A stretch of 64,000 nucleotides of DNA. It comes from a virus. The first letter of the stretch is position 1; every line of letters begins with the position of its first letter. The position numbers and the translations under genes are program-made. The notes beneath the pieces are model-generated. The model did not search any database. It was not told the origin of the DNA and saw only the letters and a program-made list of their open reading frames with translations. The stretch is from positions 55,479 to 119,478 of the IMG/VR virus record IMGVR_UViG_3300045051_000172; one strand, 5' to 3'. Shown piece after piece: positions 8,021 to 64,000 of this stretch.

Positions 8021-8042
8021 TGAACCATAGGAGAACATTCAC

Positions 8043-8615: not shown

Positions 8616-8617
8616 AT

Positions 8618-8920: not shown

Positions 8921-8960
8921 ATAGACCCTCCTATAGTTCACACCCCTGCACTAGAGGACC

Positions 8961-8992: not shown

Positions 8993-9003
8993 AGGAGATT
9001 TGA

Positions 9004-10986
9004 ATGCGTTATAAGCTTCTTAAACCTGATTGGGCTCAACCTTATATAAAAGGTAAGGATCGAAAACCCAATCCGGCGTTCATACAAGAAATTCCAGGAT
9101 CTGAAGATACACTCGAAGGTGACTTCACTGAGGAATTCCTTGCGCAAAAAAATCAAGAAGGTTACAACGTCTACTTCTTTCCAAACTTTCCAAAGACTCT
9201 ACATCCAGAAATTAAGTACGCTCGCGGAGAGCATATCGATGTTTTTGATTTCGTTTTTGTAGACATGGATTTAAAAGAAGGGGTTTATCCGACTAAAGAA
9301 GCCTTCTTGAGCAAACTTAGAGAATTTCCCATCCAACCATTTTTGGTAGTTGATTCGGGACATGGAATCCATGCTTATTGGAAGATCTCCAATTTGACTC
9401 GAAACGATTTCGTTTTTACTCAATTACAATTGATTCAAACTTTCACCACAGATGATTCGATCTGGACTGTCAAACAAATCATGCGCGCCCCTGGATACAA
9501 CAATACTAAACGATTCGGGGAATTTGTTCCCGCTGCCGTAGTTCCAGGATTCCAAGGAATAGAGGTTTCTCTTGAGACTCTACGCTCTGCCTTAAGCCCT
9601 TTGACGGCTGATAATAAAACTCGCGGACAACGTCACTTGGACAAAATGGATGGTATTGAATCAGACGAAGATCTGGAAGATTTAGATGTCTCTGAACTTC
9701 CTGAAAAATTTAAAGACGATATCGCCAAAGATCCTTTCTTGAAACAGATTTGGGAAGATCCTAAATCCTATCGAGGAGATCGATCTTCTGCTGACATGAA
9801 GTTAGCCAATATGCTGTTCAACTTAGATTACGACCGAACCGAGGCTTATACCGTTCTAATGAATACGGAGAAAGCTCGAAGTCGAGATGCCCACAATCGA
9901 CACACATACGCATTCACAGTCGTAGACAAAGTTTATAAAGATCGACCTAAATTTTACGAGGACACTGTTGCTGATTATGTTAAGACAGAAGGGGACTTTA
10001 TTGAACTCGGAAAAGAAGTTCGAGGTCCAGAGTGGATGGATGTTCAAGAAGAGAAATGGAGACGCGGACAAGTTCTGGGTCTCGTTCTAGGAACGGGTAT
10101 GGGTAAATCAACCCTATCCTTAGACATCATTAAACACATTCTTCAAAATAATCCCAAGGGACGTTTCGTTTACTTCTCTCTTGAAATGTCTAAGAAGAGC
10201 ATGATTGATAAGTGGCTTCGACTGACGAGAAATGATATGGCCCTTGCGGCTCGGCTTCATATCGTAGCAAATGAAACTAAGTCAAACGACATTCGTCACA
10301 TTGGTCTTCAAGAAGTTGTTTGGATCACTAAAGATATCAAGAAAGTCACTGGCGATGAAATTATCGGCATCGGAATAGATCACATGGGAGAACTCTCTAA
10401 TGTGGTTGACTTGACTAAAAACCCGGCATTCAACGCAAAGGGCGAGCTGGGACAAGGTGCAGGAGATAAGCGTTTCCGAGCATTGGGATACCAATCATTA
10501 TGTTCTAAAGTTAAAGACATCGCCAAGATGCTCAACGTATTTGTAATCATGCAATCACAAACAAGCCGCTTGTATGACATTATGGGCGATATTCCAATTC
10601 CAAAGTCTGGAGCTTTCGGTGCATCTAATTTCGAAAAGATGGTTCACTGGATGGTTACGGGCTGGCAACCGCTGCTCCGTGTTTATACCAAAACCAACAT
10701 GAGAGTCACGGCTTGGCAATATTGCAAATTAAGAACGGTAGGCGAAAGAGATCCGATTAAATTAAATGATCCTCGTCTGCTACTTTTTGATATGAAGATG
10801 GGAGCCTATAGAACTCTCACCGATGACGAAATGGAAGAAGTTAAGCTTTTAACCGAAGAGGCGGACAAACTTCGTTTAGCCCAAGAAAAGAATAAAGGTG
10901 GAGGAGTAGTTTATGGAAACTCTCCCGGAAAACTTTTAGAGCTTGTAGCTCAATACGAACGGTTGAAATCAAATGGTAAAGTTTGA
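9004..10986 (+). CDS. Primase-helicase fusion (RepB/AEP-type primase plus DnaB-like SF4 helicase)
   Basis: FVFVDMD and VVDSGHGIHAYW primase motifs; GTGMGKS Walker A, FSLEM, IGIDH and VIMQSQ helicase motifs. Confidence 0.85.
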   Translation: MRYKLLKPDWAQPYIKGKDRKPNPAFIQEIPGSEDTLEGDFTEEFLAQKNQEGYNVYFFPNFPKTLHPEIKYARGEHIDVFDFVFVDMDLKEGVYPTKEAFLSKLREFPIQPFLVVDSGHGIHAYWKISNLTRNDFVFTQLQLIQTFTTDDSIWTVKQIMRAPGYNNTKRFGEFVPAAVVPGFQGIEVSLETLRSALSPLTADNKTRGQRHLDKMDGIESDEDLEDLDVSELPEKFKDDIAKDPFLKQIWEDPKSYRGDRSSADMKLANMLFNLDYDRTEAYTVLMNTEKARSRDAHNRHTYAFTVVDKVYKDRPKFYEDTVADYVKTEGDFIELGKEVRGPEWMDVQEEKWRRGQVLGLVLGTGMGKSTLSLDIIKHILQNNPKGRFVYFSLEMSKKSMIDKWLRLTRNDMALAARLHIVANETKSNDIRHIGLQEVVWITKDIKKVTGDEIIGIGIDHMGELSNVVDLTKNPAFNAKGELGQGAGDKRFRALGYQSLCSKVKDIAKMLNVFVIMQSQTSRLYDIMGDIPIPKSGAFGASNFEKMVHWMVTGWQPLLRVYTKTNMRVTAWQYCKLRTVGERDPIKLNDPRLLLFDMKMGAYRTLTDDEMEEVKLLTEEADKLRLAQEKNKGGGVVYGNSPGKLLELVAQYERLKSNGKV

Positions 10987-13678: not shown

Positions 13679-13941
13679 GAAAATTCATTATCAATTCAGG
13701 TTTGATCTACGCTTTTCCCATAGTTATGTCTTTGGGAGGGGTAATACTCAGTATTAGTGCAGTTCTGGCGATCAACGCAATCTTCATGGATAACGAACAC
13801 CTAGTCGCCAAACTTCTTAGCTTTGCAATTGGATCTTTCGGAGCCACTTATTGCATCCGAGCCACTATGAATATGTTTGAAGAAATTCCTGAAATTCGAC
13901 GTTTACAAAAAGTCCTAGATGACATGGAGAAACGAATATGA
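13675..13941 (+). CDS. Small membrane protein (2 TM)
   Basis: Two hydrophobic segments. Confidence 0.65.
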   Translation: MRKFIINSGLIYAFPIVMSLGGVILSISAVLAINAIFMDNEHLVAKLLSFAIGSFGATYCIRATMNMFEEIPEIRRLQKVLDDMEKRI

Positions 13942-14600
13942 TCTTTATCGCATTCACTGGAGTAAAAGGTTCTGGAAAAACTACCGCAAGCGGATTCTTA
14001 AAAGAACTCGTACCAGACATGCAAGAGGTCACGTTGGCAAAGCGTCTCAAAGATGCCTCTTCTGTGGTGCTCGGAATCCCTCGTGATGACTTTGACAATC
14101 CCGCCGTAAAGGAAAAAGAATTGGCCACTCCAGTTTATCTGGATGAAAAAAATGTTGCTGCTCTTTTTGACTTCTTCAAAGTAACCCCAGACTACGACAA
14201 ACACATTCGTCCGCATATCAGTAAGGTTCTTCATAGCCCGCGCAGAGTGGCTCAATACGTTGGTACGGAAGTTCTTCGAAACTTCGACGAAGATATTCAT
14301 TGCACCGGAGCCGTCATAGATGTGACCGAAGGCGGAATCTACGTCGTAACTGACATGAGATTCACCGGAGAGTACGATTTCTTCAAAACTCGTTACGGAA
14401 CAAATTTCTATCCCTACTACATTCAAAACGGTTTGGCTGAGAAGAAGGTGGACAATCATCCATCAGAAATGCAAGTCTTTGAAGTCGCCAAAAAATGTGT
14501 CAAGTTGGACAATAATGGAACCCTAGAAGATTTGAGAAATAGAGTCTCTCAAGTTTATCAAGAAGTTATGAATACGAGACTCAGCAAAGTTGGAGGATAA
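13938..14600 (+). CDS. Deoxynucleoside monophosphate kinase
   Basis: IAFTGVKGSGKTT P-loop, AKRLK, RRVAQYVGTE and VVTDMRF motifs. Confidence 0.85.
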   Translation: MIFIAFTGVKGSGKTTASGFLKELVPDMQEVTLAKRLKDASSVVLGIPRDDFDNPAVKEKELATPVYLDEKNVAALFDFFKVTPDYDKHIRPHISKVLHSPRRVAQYVGTEVLRNFDEDIHCTGAVIDVTEGGIYVVTDMRFTGEYDFFKTRYGTNFYPYYIQNGLAEKKVDNHPSEMQVFEVAKKCVKLDNNGTLEDLRNRVSQVYQEVMNTRLSKVGG

Positions 14601-14604
14601 ATTT

Positions 14605-15045
14605 ATGGATAATCTTAAATTAATTGGACTCGGAATTGTTTTAGTGATTGCCGGATATGGAATCGGATACTTCGCCGCTCCGGATAAAATCAAGATCGAA
14701 GAAAAGATCATTGAAAAAGAAAAAACGGTCAAGGAAGAAAATAAGAAAGTCACCGAAGAGTACGATCCGAACACTGGGAAGGTGACCAAACGAATTGAAG
14801 AGACCGGCAAAAAGGAAACGAACACAAATTCCACTCAGAAGGATAAGACCACAGAGAAGGAAAAGACCCGCAAGATGTGGGCCCTTAAAGGCGGAGTTGC
14901 TTTAGATCCCCGCAAAGACATGAAGTTGACTCCTAGAGTCGGGGGCGAAGTAAGGCTTCCTATTTTTAACAGTTGGGTTGGAGTTGAAGCCGACATAAAT
15001 ATCGACCGACCGTTGGTTGGTGCGTACCTCAGATTGGAGTTCTAA
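14605..15045 (+). CDS. Membrane-anchored protein with C-terminal amphipathic beta strands ending in Phe (spanin-like candidate)
   Basis: N-terminal TM, charged E/K/T-rich middle, C-terminus ...VGAYLRLEF. Confidence 0.6.
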   Translation: MDNLKLIGLGIVLVIAGYGIGYFAAPDKIKIEEKIIEKEKTVKEENKKVTEEYDPNTGKVTKRIEETGKKETNTNSTQKDKTTEKEKTRKMWALKGGVALDPRKDMKLTPRVGGEVRLPIFNSWVGVEADINIDRPLVGAYLRLEF

Positions 15046-15046
15046 T

Positions 15047-15436
15047 ATGGAATTGCAAGAGATTAAAGGAAAAGTAATGCCGTTCTTGGAAAAGATTTTA
15101 ACCAAGACCCGAACCTCGGAGCAATCAGAAGAGCTTTCAAATGAGTTCATCATTGTTCGATCTCTTCTCGCAGATGAATATGAAGCTGCTGAACGATTAG
15201 CCGGAGCCTTGGAAGCTGAAAAGAAAGCTACCTACGCTCAAGCAGTATTCGCCTCTGGGGAAAAAACGGCAGGCCTAAAAGAATATGATGCAGATCGAAA
15301 TGAATCCGTCGTTCAGATTCGAGCCGCAGTTGCTGAAGCTAATTCCCGAATGAACTGGCTTGAGAATCATTTGAAGATTTTTAATGACGCTACTGTTGGA
15401 TTCAGACAAAAGGCAGATCGTCAAGGGAGAACCTAA
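15047..15436 (+). CDS. Helical protein, possible UvsY-like recombination mediator
   Basis: Coiled-coil pattern; directly upstream of and coupled to recA. Confidence 0.45.
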   Translation: MELQEIKGKVMPFLEKILTKTRTSEQSEELSNEFIIVRSLLADEYEAAERLAGALEAEKKATYAQAVFASGEKTAGLKEYDADRNESVVQIRAAVAEANSRMNWLENHLKIFNDATVGFRQKADRQGRT

Positions 15437-16395
15437 TGGACTTGAAAGACACAATTGCAAAGCTCCGAGAAGGCATCAATAAAGATCTAGGTAAGAAGGT
15501 AGCGCTCGATTTAAACGTCGAAGACCTTCTTCAAGTAGACCAATGGATCAACATGCCAGACTGGTTTACGTTCTTGACCGGCAAAGGAACAGGTATCCCA
15601 TGTGGTCATTTCGGCCAAGTTATCGGTGAACCTGATTCGGGCAAAACTTCCCTGATTATCGCAATGATGATTGCCTGCCAAAAACAAGGCGGGGTTGTCT
15701 TCATGATTGATTCTGAACACAAATTTCCAGTAGATCGATTTGTACGCTTCGGTGGACAGAAAGAACTTCTTCTCCCTCTCGTAGCGGATACCTTGGAAGA
15801 AGCCTGGACTAACTTCGACGCGGTTATTGAACAAGTGAAAGTCCTTCGCAAGAAAGACCCTACAATGCCAATCCTGCTTGTTTGGGATAGTATTGCAGCT
15901 TCAGTTCCGGATGCGATTAAAGAATCCGAAGCTGGACAAGCCCACGTTGCGGTTCAAGCCAAGATCAACAATCAGCAGGTCATTAAGTTTCGCCAAGAAG
16001 TTCGAAAGAACAATATTGCCGCAGTGCTTATCAACCACAGTTATTTTGAAATGAATGGGTATGGCGCTCCGAAAGAAATTTTAAAAGGTGGAAAAGAACT
16101 CACCTTCCATAGTACCTACGTCATCAAGGCAGCCAAGATGGGCTGGATTGATCGTGAGAAAGATGGACGTAAACAAATTATTGGAGTCAAAACCAAGCTT
16201 TCTCCCTACAAGAATCACTTAAGTGACCTTAAGGGAGTTTCTGAAATCGCAATGATCGGGGATACGATTTGTTTCTTAGACGACACGGACGCTATCAAAG
16301 CTACAAGAGAGAGAATCGACGAGATCTTCTCTGGCATCAAGGTGGACACCGTTGAAGAGAAAGAAGCAGCAGAGAACCTCAGAAAGAAAAAATAA
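15436..16395 (+). CDS. recA: RecA/UvsX-like recombinase
   Basis: GEPDSGKT Walker A, IDSEH, VWDSIA, LINH and GGKELTF motifs. Confidence 0.9.
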   Translation: MDLKDTIAKLREGINKDLGKKVALDLNVEDLLQVDQWINMPDWFTFLTGKGTGIPCGHFGQVIGEPDSGKTSLIIAMMIACQKQGGVVFMIDSEHKFPVDRFVRFGGQKELLLPLVADTLEEAWTNFDAVIEQVKVLRKKDPTMPILLVWDSIAASVPDAIKESEAGQAHVAVQAKINNQQVIKFRQEVRKNNIAAVLINHSYFEMNGYGAPKEILKGGKELTFHSTYVIKAAKMGWIDREKDGRKQIIGVKTKLSPYKNHLSDLKGVSEIAMIGDTICFLDDTDAIKATRERIDEIFSGIKVDTVEEKEAAENLRKKK

Positions 16396-55084: not shown

Positions 55085-55135
55085 AGAAAGCCCGGGTTTG
55101 CCGGTATAATCAGAGATGCTAGGAGTTGCTTGATT

Positions 55136-56530
55136 ATGAGCGATAAGATCGAAAAAGAGATTGAACAGTTAGCAGAAAGCCTTGAAAAAGCGGGCGCGTT
55201 AGCCGGTGAGGGCGTTAGAGGAGGCCAAATTATGGGCCATACTCCAACAGGCCAGCCAATCTATGAAAGCAATTTGCAAGCTCAAAAGCAATGGCGAGAG
55301 CAACATAAGAAGCCTTCCGCAAAAATCAAGAAGAACGAAAGTCCTGAAGATAAAGAAGAAGGCAAAGAAAAAGTTAAGAAATCCGAAGGGGAACTGACTA
55401 TGGAAGTTAAAGACACACTCAAAGGTATTTTGGCCCGAATTAATGAACTTGGACCCGATGGTCTCAAGAAAGCTGCGGCCCTTTTAACTCCTGAGCAAAA
55501 TGCACTGCTCAATAAGATTTTGACTAAGGCCCTTTCAATGGATAAAGAAGCCGTCAAAAAGCCCAAGAATGTTAAAGACCTTAATTCTCACGAGATTCCT
55601 AAGCAAGAAGGAGGCATAGATGAAGAAGATGAAAAATTGGTTAAACCGGAAGCGGACAGCCATCGTGCGCAAGGCGACAACTCTCCTGAAGGCATTGAAG
55701 GTCAAGTCATTAAAAGCGAAAAACCTGCTGTGCAAGGCGATCAAAAAGCTTATGGCGGTAAAGATGCTTCTTCGAACTATGTCGAAAAGTCTGAAGATGA
55801 AGTTGAAATGCCTAAGAAAAAGTTTAAAGAAGAGCATAAAAAGCTCGTTGAAGTCCTTGAAAGCCCTTCTCGCGAAGATGACAAAGAAGAAGCTAAAAAG
55901 CAAAAGAAAGAACTCAAGGAAGAAATGAATAAACCTGAGAAGGAAGACAAGAAAATGAAGAAGTCTGAAGTTTTAGAAGAAATCTATAAGTCGGATGAAA
56001 AACTCTCTGAGCTTTGCAGCAAATGTATGAGCAAAGGAATGAAGAAAGAAAAGTTCCTTGAAAAAGCCAGTGAAATGGGCTGGGATGTTAAGAAATGTGA
56101 TATGGCTTGGAGCCGATCTGAAAAAGCCGCTCAAAAGCCTATGAAGAAATCTATTGAATGGAACGATTGGACTGCTGATGCTTTTGGTATCGGTGCCAAA
56201 CGAGGCCGCAATTTCCATGTGTCGGGTAACGACGTTGAAATTGAAAAACAAGAGACTTCGACTAAAGAAACTCTCAAAAAAGGTGAATATCTTAATGAGT
56301 TCACCCACGAAGTATTTGCCAAATCTGACAACAAGAAAGTTTCGATCAATGATTTGATCGAGAAGAGTCTTGATCGTGATTCTTGCACAGTTGAAGAGAT
56401 TTACCAACACGTTACTGGTAAGAAAGCTCCCAAGACTGCAGTTCTGACCAAGAGCTTTGATGATTCTGAAATCGAAGCAGCTCTCGGAATTGATTCCAAG
56501 AAAGCGGAAGAGATTTTAGGTAAAAAATAA
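55136..56530 (+). CDS. Highly charged putative internal head protein
   Basis: E/K-rich with many xxKS motifs; GVRGGQIMGHTPTGQPIY motif. Confidence 0.65.
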   Translation: MSDKIEKEIEQLAESLEKAGALAGEGVRGGQIMGHTPTGQPIYESNLQAQKQWREQHKKPSAKIKKNESPEDKEEGKEKVKKSEGELTMEVKDTLKGILARINELGPDGLKKAAALLTPEQNALLNKILTKALSMDKEAVKKPKNVKDLNSHEIPKQEGGIDEEDEKLVKPEADSHRAQGDNSPEGIEGQVIKSEKPAVQGDQKAYGGKDASSNYVEKSEDEVEMPKKKFKEEHKKLVEVLESPSREDDKEEAKKQKKELKEEMNKPEKEDKKMKKSEVLEEIYKSDEKLSELCSKCMSKGMKKEKFLEKASEMGWDVKKCDMAWSRSEKAAQKPMKKSIEWNDWTADAFGIGAKRGRNFHVSGNDVEIEKQETSTKETLKKGEYLNEFTHEVFAKSDNKKVSINDLIEKSLDRDSCTVEEIYQHVTGKKAPKTAVLTKSFDDSEIEAALGIDSKKAEEILGKK

Positions 56531-56540: not shown

Positions 56541-57356
56541 ATGGCCCCTCCAAATAAGCCAAATCCTCCCGGATGGCCCTCCAGCGGTTCCAAACCGGCT
56601 GCGACTTTGCCTAACAATGCAGTTCCCAATACCAAGCGCGTCGACTTTAGACTTGAAGACTTTGACTTGTTCATCAAGCAAAAAGGTATTCGAGTTAAAG
56701 TTTATCGTTCATTGCTTTGCCCTAATGTGAAATCCATTGACTCCGCTGAACATGAGATTGATTGTCCCCTCTGTCTTGGAATGCAATTCATTGACGTGAA
56801 TCCAATTGATTGCTGGGCTGCCCCTCAATCAGACGACCTCAAGAAGAAACAATTCTCTGAGGGTCTATATGACAAGAACATGATTACCCTCACGTTCGAG
56901 CGCGGCATCGACCTGCAATATTTCACTCTTGTGGAGCTTTGTGACTTCACGGATATCTTCTTTGAGAGAGTCAAACGCCAACGCGGTCAAACTGATGTGC
57001 TCAAGTACAAAGCAACCTGTGTCAATGTGTTGGTTGATTCCGAAGGAAAACAACACTACAATGGTCAAGACTTTGATTTAGATCCTAACGGTTCTATCAA
57101 ATGGAGAGTCGATAAGGGCCCTGAGTCTGGCTCAATCTATTCAGTTCACTATCACATGCGAAAACAATACCGCGCAGTTGAAGCTCAACACGTTGATCGA
57201 TACACCCAAGTGTTAAATAAAAACAACGGGGGCAAGATTGAGATGCTTAAACTCTACGAAGAGTGGAAGTTACAGAAGGAATATTTTGTTGAGCGTAAAG
57301 ATCTCAAGGGCAATCCCCTGTCTCCCAATCTCATTCGAGATGAAGACGAAGATTAA
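56541..57356 (+). CDS. Neck/tail-completion-like virion protein with a Cys cluster
   Basis: LLCPN...DCPLCLG; resembles conserved SPO1/K-type virion proteins. Confidence 0.55.
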   Translation: MAPPNKPNPPGWPSSGSKPAATLPNNAVPNTKRVDFRLEDFDLFIKQKGIRVKVYRSLLCPNVKSIDSAEHEIDCPLCLGMQFIDVNPIDCWAAPQSDDLKKKQFSEGLYDKNMITLTFERGIDLQYFTLVELCDFTDIFFERVKRQRGQTDVLKYKATCVNVLVDSEGKQHYNGQDFDLDPNGSIKWRVDKGPESGSIYSVHYHMRKQYRAVEAQHVDRYTQVLNKNNGGKIEMLKLYEEWKLQKEYFVERKDLKGNPLSPNLIRDEDED

Positions 57357-57553
57357 TAGCCCCTACTAGGATCTAAATTAACTTCCCGTTCCCCATCTAA
57401 CTCGTCTTGAATGATTTCGTTTAGACTTCCATCTCGAATACTTAAAACTTTCATTCCGTGCCAGGTTTCTTTTCGTTGATGAGCAAACCAAACAATATTT
57501 GCATCGGTTTGATCCTGTATTTCAAAGCTGACAGTTATTTTACGTTTCTTCAT
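57353..57553 (-). CDS. Hypothetical protein
   Basis: 66 aa ORF, last gene of the minus-strand block. Confidence 0.55.
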   Translation of the reverse strand: MKKRKITVSFEIQDQTDANIVWFAHQRKETWHGMKVLSIRDGSLNEIIQDELDGEREVNLDPSRGY

Positions 57554-57788
57554 TTGTACTCCTATCTTTGACGACGGCTATTGATGGATTAGTTACAGTT
57601 ATAAATTTGTATTTGCTTCCACATTCGGGGCAAGTTTCTGACTCTCTTCCAATTAAATCTTTTGATATGTCAGAAGGGACATCGTAGAGATTATATGCAT
57701 GAAGAGTGCAGTCTCCTGATTTGGACTGCTCCTCAATCTCGTGATTGCAATTAGGGCAATTAAAGTAAATTGAATCATACATTCCCAT
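57540..57788 (-). CDS. Small zinc-binding protein
   Basis: MGMYDSIYFNCPNC...QSKSGDC...CPECG; AAGGAG SD. Confidence 0.7.
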   Translation of the reverse strand: MGMYDSIYFNCPNCNHEIEEQSKSGDCTLHAYNLYDVPSDISKDLIGRESETCPECGSKYKFITVTNPSIAVVKDRSTNEET

Positions 57789-57789
57789 G

Positions 57790-58281
57790 TCATGCTCCTT
57801 TCGAAAACAATTCCTGAATGTACCAAGGTTTGTTGGGGCCGTAAACATTCTTGAGATAAGCCGGATACATCAAGCTGTACGGCTCGATGCAAACATTTCC
57901 ATTGCGAACTCGGCAACGCTCGTCGTGAGGTAAATTCAGCAAACAATGGCCCAGCTCATGGTAAAGCAATCCTTCTTTATCTTCATCGGAGGCCTCATAA
58001 AAAAACTTATCCTCAATGACTATCTGTCTCAGACCTGCGGAATTCTGAAAACAATAGCCAATACGCTTAGGAGCATCGGGGGTAGCCGTCACACCGAAAA
58101 CAACAGTCAAATCTCTCAACTTAACTGTGCGCCCAACTGAGTCAGCATCTTGAACAAAACGAGTGACGTACTCAACAAGAATAGGATCTCCGTCAATAAT
58201 GGGAGATCGGAACTCATTTGAATTGTCAGGTCCGCACGCCGACAAACTTACAACAAATGAGGCTAGATAAATCCATTGCAT
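57790..58281 (-). CDS. Lipoprotein zinc metallopeptidase (matrixin-like)
   Basis: Lipobox LSAC; HELGHCLLNLPH and SLMYP Met-turn. Confidence 0.8.
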   Translation of the reverse strand: MQWIYLASFVVSLSACGPDNSNEFRSPIIDGDPILVEYVTRFVQDADSVGRTVKLRDLTVVFGVTATPDAPKRIGYCFQNSAGLRQIVIEDKFFYEASDEDKEGLLYHELGHCLLNLPHDERCRVRNGNVCIEPYSLMYPAYLKNVYGPNKPWYIQELFSKGA

Positions 58282-58314
58282 GTTATATCTCCCAGAAATT
58301 AAGTTCAACAAAAC

Positions 58315-59013
58315 GGAAAACAATAGACGAAAGTGATTGAACTAATTTCATTGTATTTTCCTATTTGGAATCTGTTGGAAGTTTGGATTCCTATTCGAAA
58401 ATCTCCCAACAACTGAAGTTGAATAGAGTAGAACTGGAATCTTAACATCAGGGCCCGCGCCCTCAAGAATTGCAGCAACTCTATGGTGACCGTCCATAAT
58501 ATGACGGTTGACCACAATGATTGGCCCCGCTGCGCGTTTCGCCACATGATATGGATCGAACTCGGCAATAGCGACTCTCATTCTGTGGTGTTCATGGTCT
58601 ACTAGTACGTCGTGACTCGCAATTAGATCGCCCACTCGAACGCTAGTTTCGTAACAGTGAAAGACATTTACTTCTCGGTTGAGCACTCGGAAGTATTGCA
58701 ACGCGAGTGTTGGCTTCTTGACGATGAAGACCATACGTTGCAGAAGATCCCGAGTTGTGTAACGTGCGACTGCGATGCGCAAGTTCTCTAAGAAGCCAAA
58801 GGTATAAGGGAGACGATAAGAGTTCTTTCGCCCCAAGCCTGCCCATCTGAGAATCAACGCGAGGCTAAGTTGGGCCGCACCGAATAGTATCAAGCCTATG
58901 TTACTAAACAATTTCATTGTTACAATCCTCCAATAAAGTGAAAACAATTCGGAAAACAATAGATAACTGGGAGCCCTCTCGAATTGTTTGTTAGGTTTTT
59001 GGAAAACAATAGA
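58315..59013 (-). repeat. 13-bp direct repeat TCTATTGTTTTCC x3 in intergenic DNA
   Basis: Plus-strand GGAAAACAATAGA at 58315, 58951 and 59001. Confidence 0.8.
58348..58917 (-). CDS. ParB/Srx-like domain protein with an N-terminal hydrophobic segment
   Basis: IMDGHHRVAA motif; GGAGG SD. Confidence 0.6.
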   Translation of the reverse strand: MKLFSNIGLILFGAAQLSLALILRWAGLGRKNSYRLPYTFGFLENLRIAVARYTTRDLLQRMVFIVKKPTLALQYFRVLNREVNVFHCYETSVRVGDLIASHDVLVDHEHHRMRVAIAEFDPYHVAKRAAGPIIVVNRHIMDGHHRVAAILEGAGPDVKIPVLLYSTSVVGRFSNRNPNFQQIPNRKIQ

Positions 59014-59020
59014 TTCATGG

Positions 59021-59236
59021 TCAAATTTCCTCTGCAGTTACTTTAAAAATTTTGAACTTGCAGTTTGAAACTACAATTCCGTTTTCGATATCAAACTTAA
59101 TAACCTCTTTGACTTCCTTGGCCGTCTTGTGTAGGGTAAGGCCCTGGATCGCGTAATATTCTTCAATCGTATGCTCCAAAGATTCAGAAGCAATTCGATA
59201 ACCAAATCCCAAAACTTTCTTTTTAGTGCGTTTCAT
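59021..59236 (-). CDS. Hypothetical protein
   Basis: 71 aa ORF in a coupled minus-strand block. Confidence 0.6.
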   Translation of the reverse strand: MKRTKKKVLGFGYRIASESLEHTIEEYYAIQGLTLHKTAKEVKEVIKFDIENGIVVSNCKFKIFKVTAEEI

Positions 59237-59477
59237 AATTGAGGCCTCCTTTAGTCGACTCCAATTTCTTGACTTCGACCACGCTATGATTCTTTAAAAA
59301 GAGAGTTGCTTCAAAAATATGGTTGCCAGAAACCTCTTCGTAAAATTGACTCAACTCTGCATATTTTTCAAACTTAAATTTTAAAGTCTGACCTTTTTGC
59401 ATACCTCGCAGCGTCAAAAAAGCTTCACTGGCTGTTGCAAAGGTTGGGATCTTGGGGAGTTCAATTAAGTTGCTCAC
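59223..59477 (-). CDS. Hypothetical protein
   Basis: 84 aa ORF, coupled. Confidence 0.6.
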   Translation of the reverse strand: MSNLIELPKIPTFATASEAFLTLRGMQKGQTLKFKFEKYAELSQFYEEVSGNHIFEATLFLKNHSVVEVKKLESTKGGLNYETH

Positions 59478-59680
59478 GCTTCAGTCTCCTTGTACTCGTT
59501 CGCAACCTGGCACATATTCCAGTACATTCGGGCGCTAATATCATAGGCCTTAAGTACATTCTTTAGTGCGATAGCGCCGGGATATCCGTCACGTTTCAGT
59601 GCTGCTTGTTCAATATCAATCCGGGCAAGTAAATCAACTTGACGCTCTAATGCTAACTTGTGTCCTAAATCAAAGTTCAT
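59474..59680 (-). CDS. Hypothetical protein
   Basis: 68 aa ORF, coupled. Confidence 0.6.
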   Translation of the reverse strand: MNFDLGHKLALERQVDLLARIDIEQAALKRDGYPGAIALKNVLKAYDISARMYWNMCQVANEYKETEA

Positions 59681-59925
59681 TGTTCTGTCTCCTCTTCAGT
59701 TTCGTGAATCTCTCCGCAGTCTTCGCAGATGCCTGACTCTTGTATAATCACTTGACAGACTGATTCCACAATCGCTTTTGCATTGAAGAACGGGCCCGCC
59801 GCGATTATAGTTTCCATCCTTGCGGCGTCTGAGTTATCTATCATTCGATTGAAACTCTCGATTGACTGCTCAAGGATGTTAGACACTGACGCTTTGATTA
59901 GTTCTTTCTCTTCTTTAGAATTCAT
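59677..59925 (-). CDS. Hypothetical protein
   Basis: 82 aa; C-terminal CEDCGEIH. Confidence 0.6.
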   Translation of the reverse strand: MNSKEEKELIKASVSNILEQSIESFNRMIDNSDAARMETIIAAGPFFNAKAIVESVCQVIIQESGICEDCGEIHETEEETEQ

Positions 59926-59927
59926 GA

Positions 59928-60884
59928 TTAGGCACCTTTCACTAGTCTAAGGTTGTTCAGACCTTGGTTGAATCTCGAAACGAACTTCTTTACTTCTGGG
60001 ACCTCTTCAGCTCGCACGGAAAATTTACGGTCATGACTGTAATAGCCGGGCTCTTCGGCGTCGATATCTGTCAACTTAACGAACTTCGGGCCTTTATTTA
60101 CTTTCGTCAGAGTAAACTTGAGAATAGACGGGTGACTTGAATAGGTTGAGTTAGACATTTTCCCAATCTCAAGAGTCGTCTCGGTTTCGTTCACAAACTT
60201 AGGGAATACATAGGACCGAAAGTTATAATCGAAAATCTCAAGTAAAGTGAGGCCAACATTTGCGAAAACAACAGTCAACTTGTCGCGATCCCCGTTCCAA
60301 ATTGTGTCAACTAAAGCACGATAAGGCTTCAATTGCTTCTCTTGATATCTAGCCCAAATTCGGTCAACTCGTCTCTCTTCTTGTGGAGTTTGGTTTTTCT
60401 CATGGAATACATTCGGGCGTTCTAATCCAGCGGGGTCGAATATCTCGTTTAGTCGACTGCGAAGATCGCTAAAAAATCCAATCTCATTGTCGACGTTATG
60501 AATATTTTTAGGGATTGAGACATTTTGAATCTTGCCTTTTGCATCACGATATCGAATCAAAATCTCGTCACGCAACTGCACGTCGAAATAGCCCCGGTCT
60601 CTTAGATCGGGATGCGTTCTAAGATTTGCATAGATTTCGAGCGTGTCGCAGCTTCGACCGTTTCCTTTAAAAAGCCGCAAATCTTTCACGTCAAAAATAT
60701 CAGTGCGCAAAGTCATGCCAAGCGTGTCACCGTTGAAATCCTGGTCAATCCCATGGGCGGGCTCAAAGCGGGTATATTCCACACTCAGGGCATTCAATCC
60801 ATCCCAACTATTGATGCTCTCAGTCAAGCGGGCTTGGATCTTCTTTAGGTTGTTTGCTTTCAAAGTTTCGTGTAAGTTTCTCAT
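59928..60884 (-). CDS. Hypothetical protein
   Basis: 318 aa ORF with AAGGAG SD. Confidence 0.75.
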   Translation of the reverse strand: MRNLHETLKANNLKKIQARLTESINSWDGLNALSVEYTRFEPAHGIDQDFNGDTLGMTLRTDIFDVKDLRLFKGNGRSCDTLEIYANLRTHPDLRDRGYFDVQLRDEILIRYRDAKGKIQNVSIPKNIHNVDNEIGFFSDLRSRLNEIFDPAGLERPNVFHEKNQTPQEERRVDRIWARYQEKQLKPYRALVDTIWNGDRDKLTVVFANVGLTLLEIFDYNFRSYVFPKFVNETETTLEIGKMSNSTYSSHPSILKFTLTKVNKGPKFVKLTDIDAEEPGYYSHDRKFSVRAEEVPEVKKFVSRFNQGLNNLRLVKGA

Positions 60885-60908
60885 GGTTACGTCTCCTTTA
60901 AAGTTAGA

Positions 60909-61565
60909 TTATCCGGGGTAGTACTGGGCAGCTTCTTTAGTGATCTTCTTTAAAAATGCTGCAAGTTTTTTGGGGTCTAAAGTTTCAATTTCGAAAGTCT
61001 TTACTTGGTCATAACCTCGGTGATAAGGCGCATCGTCGAATTCAAACATGATATCGACCGTAAAGGTGCCCTCTCCGTCATACATGACGCGCGCTTCGTG
61101 AAAGGTGCGGGCCCCGTCGTATTGTTCTAAAAATTCCAGCTCATAACTCGCAAACTCTTCTGCAAGTTGAAATGAAGCCTTTTCAATTCCGTGATAATTC
61201 ACGTCTTCATTCTTTACGCCTAAATCTGAGAGGGTTTCAGCATACTTTTCAAGGAATGCCTCTTTTGCATCTTCCAATAGTGAATCAATGCGGGCCTGAA
61301 CTTTCTTTTCGACTCCCTTGTCAAGTAAGACCGTATAGAGCGGGTCACCAATGTGGAAGTCGTAAAGGCTCTTGAATGTGGTTACATGCAAGCCGCCCCT
61401 ATTCCAAGAGTGCGGAATGAAGCCCGAACGGCTTCGACACTCAAGCTCTTCAGTCTCTCCGCCGAACGTGTCTTCTAACCAATTTTTGACCACGTCTTGA
61501 GTTACTTGGGGGAGTTGATCGAAATAGTCTGCTTCGTTTGAAAGTTTTTTGAGGTTTGAACGCAT
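60909..61565 (-). CDS. Hypothetical acidic protein
   Basis: 218 aa ORF with AGGAG SD. Confidence 0.75.
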   Translation of the reverse strand: MRSNLKKLSNEADYFDQLPQVTQDVVKNWLEDTFGGETEELECRSRSGFIPHSWNRGGLHVTTFKSLYDFHIGDPLYTVLLDKGVEKKVQARIDSLLEDAKEAFLEKYAETLSDLGVKNEDVNYHGIEKASFQLAEEFASYELEFLEQYDGARTFHEARVMYDGEGTFTVDIMFEFDDAPYHRGYDQVKTFEIETLDPKKLAAFLKKITKEAAQYYPG

Positions 61566-61566
61566 G

Positions 61567-61803
61567 TTACTCTCCTAATCCTGCGACTCGGTTGGCCGCG
61601 ATAGTGTTGACGGTTGCGTACACAATCGAATGAAACTTGGTAGTGCCCCAGCGATAGTCTTTAGAGAATCTGAAGCCCGTGACGTAAAGCACGGGAGAGA
61701 TTGCCACGCCTAAAGCGGTCTTCGCTAAATAGGCCCAATCTTCGGGGGTCTTTAGATATTCACTTGCGATCTTAAGTTCTAGTTTGGCTTGCGTTAAGTT
61801 CAT
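61567..61803 (-). CDS. Hypothetical protein, first gene after the sigma-54 site
   Basis: 78 aa ORF. Confidence 0.6.
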   Translation of the reverse strand: MNLTQAKLELKIASEYLKTPEDWAYLAKTALGVAISPVLYVTGFRFSKDYRWGTTKFHSIVYATVNTIAANRVAGLGE

Positions 61804-61814
61804 GCCCTTAGTTA

Positions 61815-61830
61815 TGCAAAGCTCGTGCCA
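61815..61830 (-). promoter_or_regulatory. Sigma-54 (RpoN) -24/-12 promoter
   Basis: TGGCAC-GAGCT-TTGCA matches the TGGCACR-N4-TTGCW consensus. Confidence 0.75.
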
Positions 61831-61857
61831 AGCGCCCAGTCACATGAGGTTACACCC

Positions 61858-61877
61858 TAACTAATCGAATTCATTGA
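61858..61877. promoter_or_regulatory. IHF-like site
   Basis: TAACTAATCGAATTCATTGA; 16/20 identical to 38174-38193; two mismatches to YAANNNNTTGATW. Confidence 0.45.
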
Positions 61878-61911
61878 GAACTTAAGTTTTGCCTAAATTT
61901 TCGTCACATGA

Positions 61912-62046
61912 ATTGTGACAAAAAATGTCCCAATATTTCGTTATTAGTTCGAATCCGAATGCAGTTTAGTGCGCATTCGTGAGTGATTCTCATTGATTAG
62001 GAATTGGGACAATTTGCGCGCTATTTGGGACAAAAAATGTCCCAAT
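61912..62046. promoter_or_regulatory. Palindromic operator/enhancer-like sites
   Basis: ATTGTGACA-AAAAA-TGTCCCAAT (61912-61934), TTGGGACA-AAAAA-TGTCCCAA (62025-62045), half-site at 62002. Confidence 0.7.
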
Positions 62047-62054
62047 TCAGGCCA

Positions 62055-62087
62055 AATAAAAAGCCCCGGCTGGGAGTTCGCCGGGGC
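62055..62087 (-). terminator. Intrinsic terminator (minus strand)
   Basis: GCCCCGGC-loop-GCCGGGGC followed by TTTTTATTT on the minus strand. Confidence 0.85.
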
Positions 62088-62119
62088 AGTATGGGGTATT
62101 AGGGAGACAACTTTAAAAT

Positions 62120-62431
62120 CTATTTAGCGCGCATTAGGCGGGCCTTGGCTTCATTCAAGGCGCTTCCTGGGGCCGTAACTGATCCCTGCTCATATAAGCT
62201 CAATGCATAGGCTAAATTTCCAAACTTGACGCCTTGCTTCATTCCATCGTCAACGGTTTCCTTAGCGGCGCTTCCGAGCACTTCGACTGTGTCTAACAGG
62301 GCCAAAATCTCATTGACCACAACTTCGGCTTTCTCAAAATTCTTTCCAGTAAAGAGCATGGTGCTCTGATTCACTTCTTTCAAGTTCTTTCTCGCGGCTT
62401 CTAGTTTGCTTCTGATCTCTTGTGCTTTCAT
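62120..62431 (-). CDS. Hypothetical protein
   Basis: 103 aa; GGAG SD and TTGACT-16-TAAACT promoter-like element upstream. Confidence 0.65.
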   Translation of the reverse strand: MKAQEIRSKLEAARKNLKEVNQSTMLFTGKNFEKAEVVVNEILALLDTVEVLGSAAKETVDDGMKQGVKFGNLAYALSLYEQGSVTAPGSALNEAKARLMRAK

Positions 62432-62495
62432 GTTGATCTCTCCCATGACTTCAGTTTACGCCTCTCGCGTCTGGAGTCAAGCCTAGGAAAATCAG

Positions 62496-62702
62496 CTAGT
62501 TAGCCTCGTTTTTGCCGCCCCTAATGATTCTCAATCGGGCCGGGCTATCCTTTGCGATGCCATGGTCGTCTAGCTTGCGCTCTAAATGAGCTTGGGCCGT
62601 TAGGGCCTTGTGCAGCAGATCTTTAAAGATCCGATCCGCAGTCTTAAGGTCGTTTGAGGCAGTTGCATTGTGGAGTGCTTTGATCTTATCTTGTGTGTCC
62701 AT
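62496..62702 (-). CDS. Hypothetical protein
   Basis: 68 aa ORF. Confidence 0.6.
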   Translation of the reverse strand: MDTQDKIKALHNATASNDLKTADRIFKDLLHKALTAQAHLERKLDDHGIAKDSPARLRIIRGGKNEAN

Positions 62703-62717
62703 GGCTTGATTCTCCTC

Positions 62718-62906
62718 TCATTTTAAAGCCCTGGCTAGTACCCGGCTAATTGCTTGACATTCTTCAGGATTTTCACAATTCTTTTGCATTCTCTCTAATT
62801 CCTGAACATATTCAGATTTAGGGGCCGCGCTCGGTTGAAAGCCAAGGTGCAAAAGTGTAATGATTCCAAGGCCAAAGGCTAAACCTATGATTTTATTGAT
62901 ATTCAT
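62718..62906 (-). CDS. Small membrane-anchored protein
   Basis: N-terminal hydrophobic segment. Confidence 0.6.
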   Translation of the reverse strand: MNINKIIGLAFGLGIITLLHLGFQPSAAPKSEYVQELERMQKNCENPEECQAISRVLARALK

Positions 62907-63442
62907 GACGCATATCCTCTCAAGTTGGATGCCTCTTTAGGCAGTTTCAGAGTGTTGGCCTTATAATCTCCGCGAGTCACCACATAGCCGTTAGCCTCAT
63001 TCTGATAAATGTAGTCTGGCTTCTGATCGGTCCAATCGCTCTCGGTGAAAATCTCGAATCCCTCTCGAATAGTGAAAGGGCCTGACTTCACGTTGGCACT
63101 GAATCCGAAGCGGGTCAATATGGCATTTAGGGCATCATTGAATTCGACGCGCTGATCCCATGAGGGCAGGTTAGTGCGTCTTAAGTGTCCGGGGCGGCAT
63201 TGGGTGTTATATCCGAGCTTGTCGGTATCGATGCGAAATTGTGACTTGTTCCAATCGACCTTTAAAGCGGTCGAATTGACGATGTTGGCCTCGCACTTGA
63301 AGCCTAAAGATCGCATGTGATTCTCAATTTCGTCACATACCAGCTCTAATTCAATGGCCAAAGGCTTTCGAAGTTCCCCGTGAGATTTGATTTTAGAGCC
63401 CAAAATGTGTTTATTTACAACTCGAATTTTCGTGATTTTCAT
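62903..63442 (-). CDS. Hypothetical protein
   Basis: 179 aa ORF with AAGGA SD. Confidence 0.7.
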   Translation of the reverse strand: MKITKIRVVNKHILGSKIKSHGELRKPLAIELELVCDEIENHMRSLGFKCEANIVNSTALKVDWNKSQFRIDTDKLGYNTQCRPGHLRRTNLPSWDQRVEFNDALNAILTRFGFSANVKSGPFTIREGFEIFTESDWTDQKPDYIYQNEANGYVVTRGDYKANTLKLPKEASNLRGYAS

Positions 63443-63445
63443 GGC

Positions 63446-63661
63446 TTATTTTCCTTTCGCTGTATACACGTTTTTGATATCCCAAACCTGGGGCTTTCGT
63501 TCGAAGTCACATTTTCTCTTGATCTCTCCGCGTTCCAGTACTTCCACAATGGGAATGATGGTTAGGGCATCTGCTCGCACGTCGAAGACTTCCCAAAGGC
63601 CCTTTTGATAACGGAGAGTTTCACCCTCTTTGAACTCTTTATTGAAGTTGGTTACTTTCAT
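63446..63661 (-). CDS. Hypothetical protein
   Basis: 71 aa; AGGAG SD before the ATG at 63661. Confidence 0.6.
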   Translation of the reverse strand: MKVTNFNKEFKEGETLRYQKGLWEVFDVRADALTIIPIVEVLERGEIKRKCDFERKPQVWDIKNVYTAKGK

Positions 63662-63662
63662 T

Positions 63663-63863
63663 TTATTTTCTCCTAATGATTTCAAACTCTTGCAGTTGCT
63701 CTTCTAGCGCAGCATCGTCTAAATCCTCGAATTCATTCAATAAAGCTTCGTGCGCATCCTCAAAGGTCTTGAATTCGCCGTAATAGCCGGTCTTGTCATT
63801 CCCGGCCCAATCGACGATGTACCAGATTTCATGCTTCACTTGATATGCGTTGTAAAGCTTCAT
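63663..63863 (-). CDS. Hypothetical protein
   Basis: 66 aa ORF, coupled. Confidence 0.6.
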   Translation of the reverse strand: MKLYNAYQVKHEIWYIVDWAGNDKTGYYGEFKTFEDAHEALLNEFEDLDDAALEEQLQEFEIIRRK

Positions 63864-64000
63864 TAGAACGCCCTCGAAAGGATGATATTTTGACCGTTAA
63901 AGATTAGTTGAAAGCCTCGGCTGATGTAGTATCGGATCGTTTCTTTACTCATGGCTTTGAATCCGACTCTCTGACCTGTTACTCTAATTTCGACTTGTCT
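63863..64000 (-). CDS. 3' end of a gene entering from the right edge
   Basis: Open frame ...RQVEIRVTGQRVGFKAMSKETIRYYISRGFQLIFNGQNIILSRAF-stop, overlapping the next ATG. Confidence 0.5.
   Translation of the reverse strand, partial: RQVEIRVTGQRVGFKAMSKETIRYYISRGFQLIFNGQNIILSRAF

What the first reader, a model, noticed from the sequence alone, without database searches (positions are those of the whole stretch)
61804..62087. Complete sigma-54 enhancer-type promoter architecture in a phage
Seen, in transcription order on the minus strand: a strong terminator (62055-62087), a perfect palindrome TTGGGACA-N5-TGTCCCAA (62025-62045), a half-site (62002), a near-identical palindrome (61912-61934), an IHF-like site (61858-61877), and consensus TGGCAC-N5-TTGCA (61815-61830) ending ~12 nt before the ATG at 61803. 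Knowledge: sigma-54 promoters need a bacterial enhancer-binding AAA+ protein bound about 80-200 bp upstream, often with IHF bending in between; phage use of sigma-54 is rarely described. No enhancer-binding protein is encoded in this window. Inference: the ~4.5 kb, 12-gene block (57353-61803) is switched on only when a specific host activator is active, tying phage gene expression to host physiological state. The first mRNA would be nearly leaderless.
Basis: partly seen in the sequence, partly recalled or inferred. Interest (0 to 1): 0.8.

Follow-up and report, generated by a model that had tools for sequence, protein, structure and literature searches.

The report
Phage sigma-54 promoters with host operators
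An uncultured 119-kb phage starts its block of small early genes from two textbook sigma-54 promoters, and the palindromes upstream of one of them match the operator of a Fic-type (defence-like) DNA-binding protein found only in Bdellovibrio-like bacteria, not any known sigma-54 activator site, which points to the host and to an unusual phage-host regulatory link.

Summary
The sequence features are real, except that the "IHF-like" site has no consensus support. The −24/−12 element TGGCACGAGCTTTGCA (61815-61830, −) is an exact σ54 consensus. A near-identical second copy, P1 (TGGCACGAGGTTTGCA), lies 2.4 kb upstream across the junction of the circularly permuted record, at the head of the same 16-gene leftward block. 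The phage encodes no rpoN and no AAA+ activator.

The two promoters share a palindrome, GTCAC-N7-GTGAC, at −107/−118. It occurs nowhere else in the genome and is the best candidate activator site.

In public genomes it lies directly beside one gene family, a winged-helix–Fic protein of Bdellovibrionota, where it flanks that gene's σ70-type promoter. A paralogue with a changed recognition helix has a changed operator (TGTCGCAA). That protein is not an enhancer-binding protein.

Even so, four distinct related phage genomes place arrays of these operators 110-260 bp upstream of σ54 cores. In a close relative such a promoter directly precedes an anti-restriction S-AdoMet-lyase gene.

Verdict: these are genuine σ54-type promoters, with precedent in phage YuA and in other phages from this scan. 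The "enhancer" reading of the palindromes is only partly supported. The operator link to a host defence-like protein is new.

The parts
62054..62087 (-). Intrinsic terminator ending the upstream (P1-driven) transcription unit. Stem at 62063-62087, U-tract at 62054-62062.
   Evidence: Sequence. RNA fold -19.8 kcal/mol with an 8-bp GC stem, z = -2.46. Position -283 to -259 relative to the predicted P2 start.
62025..62045 (.). Distal perfect palindrome TTGGGACA-N5-TGTCCCAA, centred at -231. It is identical, including the A5/T5 spacer, to the operator upstream of wHTH-Fic genes in Bdellovibrionota.
   Evidence: Identical operators in genomes G008 and G009. Adjacent to the wHTH-Fic gene in 14 of 14 cases.
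62003..62011 (-). Solo half-site TTGTCCCAA, at about -204.
61913..61933 (.). Proximal palindrome TTGGGACA-N5-TGTCACAA (one mismatch), centred at -119. It overlaps the next element.
61903..61919 (.). Palindrome GTCAC-N7-GTGAC, centred at -107. It is shared with P1, where it is centred at -118, one helical turn further. This is the best candidate for the site of the unknown host enhancer-binding protein.
   Evidence: It occurs only twice in 119 kb, against 0.09 expected, and both copies are at these positions.
61868..61875 (-). AATGAATT block between the upstream sites and the core. It is present in P1 (at -49) and, inverted, in the L209 promoter. It has no IHF consensus match.
61815..61830 (-). 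σ54-type -24/-12 promoter core P2, TGGCACGAGCTTTGCA.
   Evidence: Exact consensus match, unique in the window. The near-identical extended core TGGCACGAG-N-TTTGCA is found in P1 (genome 144-159) and in relative L209.
61567..61803 (-). First gene of the P2 unit (78 aa, ORFan). Its ATG is at predicted +2, so the mRNA would be nearly leaderless, with no usable Shine-Dalgarno.
   Evidence: No Pfam or PHROG match.
57353..61803 (-). P2-driven block of about 11-12 small genes. Nearly all are ORFans. One has a weak metallopeptidase-like match and one is a zinc-ribbon protein.
   Evidence: In relative L213 the homologous block carries Gad2-like and S-AdoMet-lyase genes.
62120..64000 (-). The part of the P1-driven unit that lies in the window (7 small ORFan genes). 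P1 itself is outside the window, at genome 144-159, across the junction of the permuted record.

Best explanation
The 16-gene leftward block of this phage contains small ORFan genes of the early, host-takeover or anti-defence type. It is transcribed by host RNA polymerase carrying σ54, from two promoters.

P1 lies in the divergent control region and has a normal leader. P2 re-initiates after a terminator and gives a nearly leaderless mRNA.

σ54 holoenzyme cannot open DNA on its own, and the phage has no activator. A host AAA+ enhancer-binding protein must therefore fire both promoters. This step is inferred. The only upstream element the two promoters share, the palindrome GTCAC-N7-GTGAC at -107/-118, is its most likely landing site.

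The conspicuous TTGGGACA-N5-TGTCCCAA palindromes at -231 and -119, with the half-site at about -204, form a second input. They are high-affinity copies of the operator that a Bdellovibrionota winged-helix-Fic protein uses on its own gene. That protein is a tightly autoregulated, defence-like protein with a non-canonical Fic motif.

The host protein is predicted to bind there. The proximal operator overlaps the candidate activator site, so the likeliest effect is to gate activation of P2, either as an anti-activator or as an architectural co-regulator. The direction of the effect is unknown.

The host is therefore most likely a Bdellovibrio-like bacterium.
For: σ54 cores:
- There are two exact 16-mer consensus matches differing by one spacer base. 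Both are intergenic and co-oriented with the downstream genes.
- The extended core is conserved in syntenic relative L209/L216, and a perfect core is present in L213.
- L006 has 18 cores in 16 kb, against about 0.3 expected.

No phage EBP or rpoN.

Shared candidate activator site: GTCAC-N7-GTGAC occurs only twice in the genome, with 0.09 expected, and the two copies are offset by 11 bp.

Operator identity:
- 17 of 120 palindrome loci are Bdellovibrionota.
- 14 of those 17 lie 21-113 nt from a wHTH-Fic gene, and no locus from another taxon does.
- No site with ≤1 mismatch lies outside that locus in five host genomes.
- In L087 the operators flank and enter a TTGATA-N18-TATAAT promoter, my reading of the sequence.
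- The TGTCGCAA variant operator goes with a paralogue that is 71% identical overall but only 45% identical in the wHTH, with a changed recognition helix.
- The wHTH occurs once per host genome.

No phage homologue by tblastn or HMM.

The host clade has rpoN, 10-19 EBPs per genome, and canonical -24/-12 sites.

Positional coupling: full palindromes are centred at -231, -204 and -210 in three phages whose intervening DNA is unrelated.

Block function: in L213 the σ54 promoter directly precedes an S-AdoMet lyase, and the block has a Gad2-like gene.
Against: - Nothing here has been tested experimentally. RpoN dependence, the transcription start and all protein binding are inferred.
- No host EBP is identified. 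GTCAC-N7-GTGAC was not found upstream of σ54 cores in five Bdellovibrionota genomes, nor in relatives L006, L010, L209 or L213. It could be a remnant of a P1/P2 duplication.
- The host assignment rests on the operator alone. No CRISPR spacer or shared DNA was found in 301 Bdellovibrionota genomes for 20 kb of the phage. GroEL and cultured-phage similarity are uninformative.
- The consistent placement of the operator arrays upstream of σ54 cores in four phages would be explained more simply if their binder were the activator.
- The same palindrome sits at a UAS position in two other phyla (L051, L094).
- P1 has no clean operator, so the operators are not needed for every σ54 promoter.
Confidence: 0.55

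Rival explanations
1. The TTGGGACA-N5-TGTCCCAA palindromes are the enhancer (UAS) of a specific host AAA+ enhancer-binding protein, which activates P2 by DNA looping. On this view the wHTH-Fic protein merely shares, or has evolved to mimic, that specificity.
For: - Arrays of these sites lie 110-260 bp upstream of σ54 cores in four distinct phage genomes whose intervening DNA is not conserved.
- In a Desulfobacterales and a Nitrospirae genome the exact palindrome is centred at -82 and -75 from perfect σ54 cores. About 0.01 such coincidences would be expected among the loci examined (my estimate).
- In L006 the array lies within a 16-kb region with 18 σ54 cores.
Against: - In five Bdellovibrionota genomes, no site with ≤1 mismatch lies outside the wHTH-Fic locus. 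A host EBP with this specificity would have no host targets there.
- None of 14 host σ54 promoters examined has such sites.
- Operator and wHTH co-vary, and that wHTH is found in no EBP.
- The L010 array lies in a 65-bp gap between convergent genes.
- P1 works, if it works, without a clean copy.
- The -205 to -230 position is far out for a primary UAS.
Confidence: 0.25
2. The arrays serve a function unrelated to promoter control. Possibilities are iterons or a centromere-like, packaging or origin site bound by an unrecognised phage protein, or a DNA decoy that titrates the host Fic-type defence protein. On this view their proximity to σ54 cores is incidental.
For: - The L010 array lies between convergent genes.
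- The arrays are dense, with 5-8 half-sites in 60-130 bp.
- L006 and L010 mix both operator variants. That suits a decoy aimed at hosts carrying either paralogue.
- The wHTH-Fic protein matches PADLOC defence-candidate models PDC-S04 and SoFic.
Against: - The position relative to σ54 cores is similar in three phages.
- No phage protein with this wHTH, or with any recognised DNA-binding domain, was found in the block.
- There is only one array per genome and no AT-rich or DnaA-box features.
- The record ends are an assembly artefact of a circularly permuted genome and not a terminus near the array.
Confidence: 0.12
3. The TGGCAC-N5-TTGCA elements are not used by host σ54. They are either chance matches or the promoter of an unrecognised phage-encoded transcription factor.
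For: - No experiment has been done.
- Many of the L006 cores are intragenic and lie on both strands.
- The L209 head region has other repeated motifs that could be phage-specific promoters.
Against: - There are two exact consensus 16-mers, with about 0.015 expected per window. Both are at the heads of co-oriented units.
- The core is conserved in relatives while the flanks diverge.
- Candidate host genomes use the same consensus.
- There is published precedent for a σ54-like promoter in phage YuA (PMC10914365).
Confidence: 0.05

Closest known systems
Classical enhancer-dependent σ54 promoters (for example glnAp2/NtrC, nifH/NifA, pspA/PspF; from general knowledge)
   Same: Exact -24 GG / -12 GC consensus with correct spacing. 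Inverted repeats 100-230 bp upstream. No -35/-10 element. The activator is supplied in trans.
   Different: - The promoter is on a lytic-type phage genome.
- No IHF consensus lies between the sites and the core.
- The most conspicuous upstream palindromes match the operator of a non-AAA+ protein.
- The P2 transcript would be nearly leaderless.
σ54-like promoter of Pseudomonas phage YuA (Ceyssens et al. 2008, as cited and re-detected by cappable-seq in PMC10914365)
   Same: A virulent phage that uses a host σ54-type promoter without encoding σ54 or an activator.
   Different: - YuA is a 58-kb siphovirus of Pseudomonas, unrelated to this phage.
- The text I read mentions no upstream operator array or link to a host Fic protein.
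- Here two promoters head a dedicated ORFan or anti-defence block.
Fic-domain anti-phage defence candidates SoFic and PDC-S04 (PADLOC models)
   Same: The Bdellovibrionota protein whose operator the phage carries matches these models over its Fic domain (E 2e-16 and 7e-12). It aligns with FICD structures.
   Different: - It has an N-terminal winged helix with dedicated palindromic operators on its own promoter.
- Its Fic motif lacks the catalytic His (QAFEDVNKRTAR), and this is conserved in all members seen.
- No defence activity has been shown.
Other uncultured phages with σ54-type promoters noted earlier in this scan (e1-3444879, e1-3405415, e1-3429583, e1-5856742)
   Same: Perfect -24/-12 cores in front of early or accessory genes, upstream palindromes, no phage activator, and often an ATG 12-14 nt after the core.
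   Different: These are different genomes with different upstream palindromes. None of the notes shown links the palindrome to a host non-EBP operator. They are unchecked AI notes.

Membership tests
σ54 (RpoN) -24/-12 promoter | GG and GC dinucleotides exactly one helical turn apart within TGGCAC-N5-TTGCW | tested here: met
   P2 (61815-61830) and P1 (genome 144-159) match all 11 specified positions.
σ54 (RpoN) -24/-12 promoter | Located upstream of, and co-oriented with, a transcription unit, and conserved in relatives | tested here: met
   Both are intergenic, at the heads of leftward units. Perfect cores are present in relatives L209/L216 and L213 while the flanks diverge.
σ54 (RpoN) -24/-12 promoter | Transcription requires RpoN and starts about 12 nt downstream of the -12 GC | not testable with these tools
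   Needs TSS mapping and an rpoN mutant or in vitro transcription.
σ54 (RpoN) -24/-12 promoter | The host supplies σ54 and AAA+ activators | tested here: inconclusive
   The phage has neither. The inferred host clade has one rpoN and 10-19 EBPs per genome, but the host itself is inferred, not shown.
bEBP upstream activating sequence (enhancer) | Inverted repeats about 80-250 bp upstream of the core, at a conserved position | tested here: met
   TTGGGACA palindromes are centred at -231 and -119, with relatives at -204 and -210. GTCAC-N7-GTGAC is centred at -107 and -118.
bEBP upstream activating sequence (enhancer) | The same site occurs at σ54 promoters of the host's own regulon | tested here: not met
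   For TTGGGACA-N5-TGTCCCAA, no site with ≤1 mismatch lies outside the wHTH-Fic locus in five Bdellovibrionota genomes, and none occurs at 14 host σ54 promoters. For GTCAC-N7-GTGAC plus a core, there were 0 hits in five genomes. It was met only in two unrelated phyla, L051 and L094.
bEBP upstream activating sequence (enhancer) | Bound by an AAA+ (Sigma54_activat) protein | not testable with these tools
   Needs footprinting or pull-down.
Operator of the Bdellovibrionota wHTH-Fic autoregulator | Sequence TTGGGACA-N5-TGTCCCAA, usually with an A/T-rich spacer and in multiple copies plus half-sites | tested here: met
   The phage sites are identical to the G008 and G009 operators, including the spacer. 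There are two palindromes plus a half-site, as at the host loci.
Operator of the Bdellovibrionota wHTH-Fic autoregulator | Operator and DNA-binding domain are linked: adjacency, exclusivity and co-variation | tested here: met
   In 14 of 14 cases the operator is adjacent to the gene, and only in Bdellovibrionota. There is one locus per genome. The TGTCGCAA variant goes with a changed recognition helix.
Operator of the Bdellovibrionota wHTH-Fic autoregulator | Physical binding of the protein to the phage sites | not testable with these tools
   Needs EMSA, footprinting or ChIP.
IHF-assisted σ54 promoter | IHF consensus WATCAANNNNTTR between the UAS and the core | tested here: not met
   No match with ≤1 mismatch in P1 or P2. 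The IHF preference of the host is unknown.

The most novel reading that the evidence does not exclude
A sub-clade of ~119-kb phages of Bdellovibrio-like bacteria wires the σ54 promoters of its early anti-defence genes to arrays of operators for a host Fic-type, defence-like DNA-binding protein. The phages track both specificity variants of that protein (TGTCCCAA and TGTCGCAA).

On this reading the phage reads the presence or state of a host defence protein as a transcriptional input. Alternatively, the host protein defends by sitting on the phage's control region. Either case is a direct promoter-level phage-defence interaction of a kind not described.

A bolder version is that this non-AAA+ protein is an obligatory partner in σ54 activation.
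Probability: 0.25. Interest if true: 0.85.

Novelty: new variant of a known kind. Interest (0 to 1): 0.6.

Why it matters
σ54 promoters are silent until a signal-controlled ATPase fires them. A phage that puts its early or anti-defence genes behind them hands the timing of infection to host physiology. That is rare in described phages, with YuA as the precedent.

Three things are new here.

- The phage has two such promoters heading one dedicated gene block.
- The upstream palindromes can be traced to a specific host protein family. This gives a host prediction (Bdellovibrionota, for which very few phages are known) from a regulatory motif alone.
- That protein is a Fic-type, defence-like autoregulator, and related phages carry arrays matching both of its specificity variants. 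This suggests co-evolution between a phage control region and a host defence or regulatory protein.

All of this is testable with simple DNA-binding and reporter assays.

Tried and rejected
- Named phages. A megablast of the region found nothing. The polymerase and portal are ≤30-40% identical to cultured phages, so no host could be inferred.
- Close relatives through the 318-aa block protein in IMG/VR: none found.
- GroEL as a host marker: about 40% identical to all phyla, so uninformative.
- Spacers or shared DNA. 20 kb of the phage against 301 Bdellovibrionota genomes gave only a chance 29-mer inside a gene and low-complexity K/E-rich matches, with no repeat array.
- tRNA and Rfam: no hits.
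- A phage-encoded binder. tblastn and a wHTH HMM against all six-frame ORFs of the phage, L006, L010 and L209 gave a best E of 3.5. Pfam and PHROG scans of the block ORFs found no DNA-binding domain.
- An EBP next to the L051 or L094 sites: none.
- A phage-like UAS at 14 host σ54 promoters: none.
- Literature. The motif search returned only noise. The Desulfovibrio EBP motifs are given only in figures. The YuA primary paper is not held, so its claim was verified only through PMC10914365.
- The 10 IMG/VR hits to the palindrome and the 25 hits to the extended core are near chance expectation. Only L006 and L010 proved relevant.
- The Desulfobacterales wHTH-Fic homologue has a different wHTH and no palindrome, so it was inconclusive.

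Full report
**1. What is in the sequence**

On the minus strand, in transcription order, the elements are as follows.
- A terminator: stem GCCCCGGC/GCCGGGGC at 62063-62087 plus a U-tract. It folds at -19.8 kcal/mol, z = -2.5.
- The perfect palindrome TTGGGACA-N5-TGTCCCAA at 62025-62045.
- A solo TTGTCCCAA at 62003-62011.
- TTGGGACA-N5-TGTCACAA at 61913-61933.
- TGGCACGAGCTTTGCA at 61815-61830.
- The ATG at 61803, which lies 12 nt after the core. If transcription starts 12 nt after the C of the -12 GC, the ATG is at +2.

These features are not chance.
- The 8-mer TTGGGACA occurs five times in the whole 119-kb genome, four of them here.
- An exact match to the σ54 16-mer is expected about 0.015 times per window, by my arithmetic.

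The one element I could not confirm is the "IHF-like" site. Neither promoter region contains WATCAANNNNTTR with ≤1 mismatch.

**2. Setting**

- The window is the last 64 kb of a 119,478-bp IMG/VR record that CheckV rates complete.
- The record's ends overlap by 111 bp with one mismatch, so the genome is circular or permuted as assembled.
- The phage encodes its own DNA polymerase, primase-helicase, SbcC, GroEL, terminase and an SPO1-like portal. It is far from any cultured phage.
- Almost all genes are on the plus strand. The exception is one leftward block of 16 small ORFan genes (window 57353-64000, continuing across the junction to genome position 116).

**3. A second promoter**

- Genome 144-159 (minus strand, outside the window) reads TGGCACGAGGTTTGCA. 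It differs from P2 by one spacer base.
- It lies in the 540-bp divergent region at the head of the leftward block and is followed by AAGGAG-N8-ATG.
- So P1 drives window 64000→62120, the terminator stops that unit, and P2 re-initiates for 61803→57353.

P1 and P2 share more than the core.
- GGGACA-N6/7-GTCACA-N6-GTGAC: the GTCAC-N7-GTGAC palindrome is centred at -107 in P2 and -118 in P1, one helical turn apart. It occurs nowhere else in the genome, with 0.09 expected.
- An AATGAATT block in the spacer.

**4. No phage activator**

- PF00158 and PF04552 find nothing in this record. PF00158 finds nothing in the records of L006, L010 and L003.
- σ54 promoters without exception require an enhancer-binding ATPase (stated for example in PMC4641369). 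The block must therefore depend on host σ54 and a host activator. This is inference.

**5. What the big palindrome is**

- Seventeen of the loci are Bdellovibrionota, from about 16 genomes.
- In 14 of these the palindrome lies 21-113 nt from one conserved 466-aa gene. No locus of any other taxon has that gene nearby.

The protein has these features.
- An N-terminal winged helix.
- A Fic domain (Pfam PF02661 at E 8.5e-8; FICD structures at E 1e-10; PADLOC PDC-S04 at 2e-16 and SoFic at 7e-12).
- A conserved non-canonical motif, QAFEDVNKRTAR, which lacks the catalytic His.
- No AAA+ domain.

The operators have the consensus TATTGGGACA-N5-TGTCCCAATA. Two of them lie 70 bp apart, with a half-site, and they bracket and enter a σ70-type promoter. 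In L087 this reads TTGATA-[TTGGGACA…]-TATAAT, my reading. That is the arrangement expected for tight autorepression.

Further evidence that the protein binds its own operator:
- In five host genomes, no site with ≤1 mismatch lies outside that locus.
- The wHTH profile hits exactly one gene per genome.
- A paralogue in another Bdellovibrionota genome (L212) is 71% identical overall but only 45% identical in the wHTH. Its recognition helix is changed (SDEGDRKAIRRVL → DDSSDRRTIQRAF) and its operator is TTGCGACA-N5-TGTCGCAA.

The phage copies are identical to the G008 and G009 operators, including the spacer. The phage has no homologue of the protein.

**6. The arrays are nevertheless tied to σ54 cores in phages**

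The 271-aa gene next to the block has more than 180 relatives, many on 114-120-kb contigs. Among the sequences examined:
- L213 (69% identity) has a perfect core, TGGCACGCAGTTTGCA, inside its leftward block. A half-site plus a perfect palindrome centred at -204 lie upstream. The core directly precedes an S-AdoMet-lyase gene, and the same block has a Gad2-like gene.
- L209/L216 (syntenic, 50-72% identity) has TGGCACGAGTTTTGCA with three TGTCGCAA-type sites at -184 to -132 and an inverted AATGAATT block.
- L006, a distant relative, has a mixed array with its palindrome centred at -210 from TTGGCAC-N5-CTGCAT. It has 18 σ54-like cores in its first 16 kb, against about 0.3 expected.
- More distant relatives, with 36-56% GC, lack both elements.
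- In L010 the array lies between convergent genes.

The intervening DNA is unrelated in these phages, while the position of the array is similar. That argues for functional coupling.

**7. Weighing**

The σ54 promoter call is strong. It rests on two exact cores, conservation in relatives, and the use of the same consensus by the candidate host clade, which has rpoN and 10-19 EBPs per genome.

The identification of the palindromes as the EBP enhancer is weaker than the operator reading.
- The only protein that co-varies with the site is not an EBP.
- Host genomes have no such sites at their own σ54 promoters.

I cannot exclude the enhancer reading, for two reasons.
- In a Desulfobacterales and a Nitrospirae genome the same palindrome is centred at -82 and -75 from perfect σ54 cores.
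- The phage arrays are consistently promoter-proximal.

My best model is therefore a two-input promoter. An unknown host EBP acts through GTCAC-N7-GTGAC or something near it, and the host wHTH-Fic protein binds the palindromes. The proximal palindrome overlaps the candidate activator site. The direction of the effect is unknown.

**8. Host**

The operator argues for a Bdellovibrio-like host. GC content is compatible (43.6% for the phage, 37-52% for the host loci). No independent support was found from spacers, shared DNA, tRNAs or GroEL.

**9. Novelty**

- σ54-type promoters in phages have precedent. YuA "is dependent on both σ70 and σ54" and has a σ54-like promoter detected by cappable-seq (PMC10914365).
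- This scan has noted several other uncultured phages with such promoters on other DNA. Those are unchecked notes.
- New here are the traceable host operator, its variant-matched arrays in related phages, and the link to a Fic-type, defence-like protein.

I rate this a new variant of a known kind.

Noticed in passing
window 63890-64000 = genome 1-111: The record's two ends overlap by 111 bp with a single mismatch. IMG/VR calls it 'linear', but it is a circular or permuted assembly. The first gene of the P1 unit and P1 itself straddle or lie beyond the window end.
   Followed up: yes
L202 (= L006 record) 1-16000: There are 18 σ54-like cores (≥10/11 consensus positions) in 16 kb, against about 0.3 expected, and 5 in the other 70 kb. 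Twelve are on the gene strand, several at gene boundaries, and six are antisense or intragenic. A palindromic double core, TGGCACATAGTTTGCATATGCAATCGGTGTGCCA, lies at 3562-3595. This phage may run much of its early programme on σ54, or may soak up σ54 holoenzyme.
   Followed up: partly
L213 10807-19227: In the closest near-complete relative, the homologous leftward block encodes a Gad2-like (anti-Gabija) protein and an S-AdoMet lyase (anti-restriction). This marks the block as an anti-defence region.
   Followed up: partly
L087:1858-3258 and orthologues (L097, L104, L150, L212 and others): The Bdellovibrionota wHTH-Fic family has a strictly conserved non-canonical Fic motif, QAFEDVNKRTAR, with Gln where the catalytic His should be. 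It is single-copy per genome. In L087 it is followed by a nucleotidyltransferase/HEPN pair. Its function is unknown.
   Followed up: partly
L210 around 1500: In another Bdellovibrionota genome, direct TTGCGACA repeats lie just after the stop codon of a gene whose product ends in a winged helix ('…TKGATNRLEY') that weakly matches the wHTH profile (E 0.006). This may be a related DNA-binding protein with its wHTH at the C-terminus.
   Followed up: no
L037, L048, L050 and others (Lachnospiraceae RUG554); L040, L059 and others (Acidimicrobiaceae ZH-Jul18-164); L038, L063 and others (Actinomycetota ELA250, LacPavin): The same 21-bp palindrome recurs at many loci within single genomes, with a genome-specific spacer (AAAAT/ATTTT, GCTGC/ACTGC, GCAGT). 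It looks like an intragenomic repeat family and is unrelated to the phage.
   Followed up: no
L209 5225-5580: The head of the leftward block in this relative has four or more copies of a CCCGGGCTCCTCTGC-like repeat instead of a σ54 core. This may be a different promoter or operator system.
   Followed up: no
window 55130-56530: A 466-aa ORF with a long Lys/Glu-rich low-complexity region and no family match. It produces spurious nucleotide hits in bacterial genomes.
   Followed up: partly
window 3499-5199: The phage encodes a full-length GroEL-type chaperonin (PHROG 5725, E 6e-112). It is about 40% identical to bacterial GroELs of every phylum tested.
   Followed up: partly
window 62453-62480 (-): A σ70-like TTGACT-N16-TAAACT lies just upstream of the 108-aa gene (62120-62446) inside the P1 unit. 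It may be an internal σ70 promoter.
   Followed up: no
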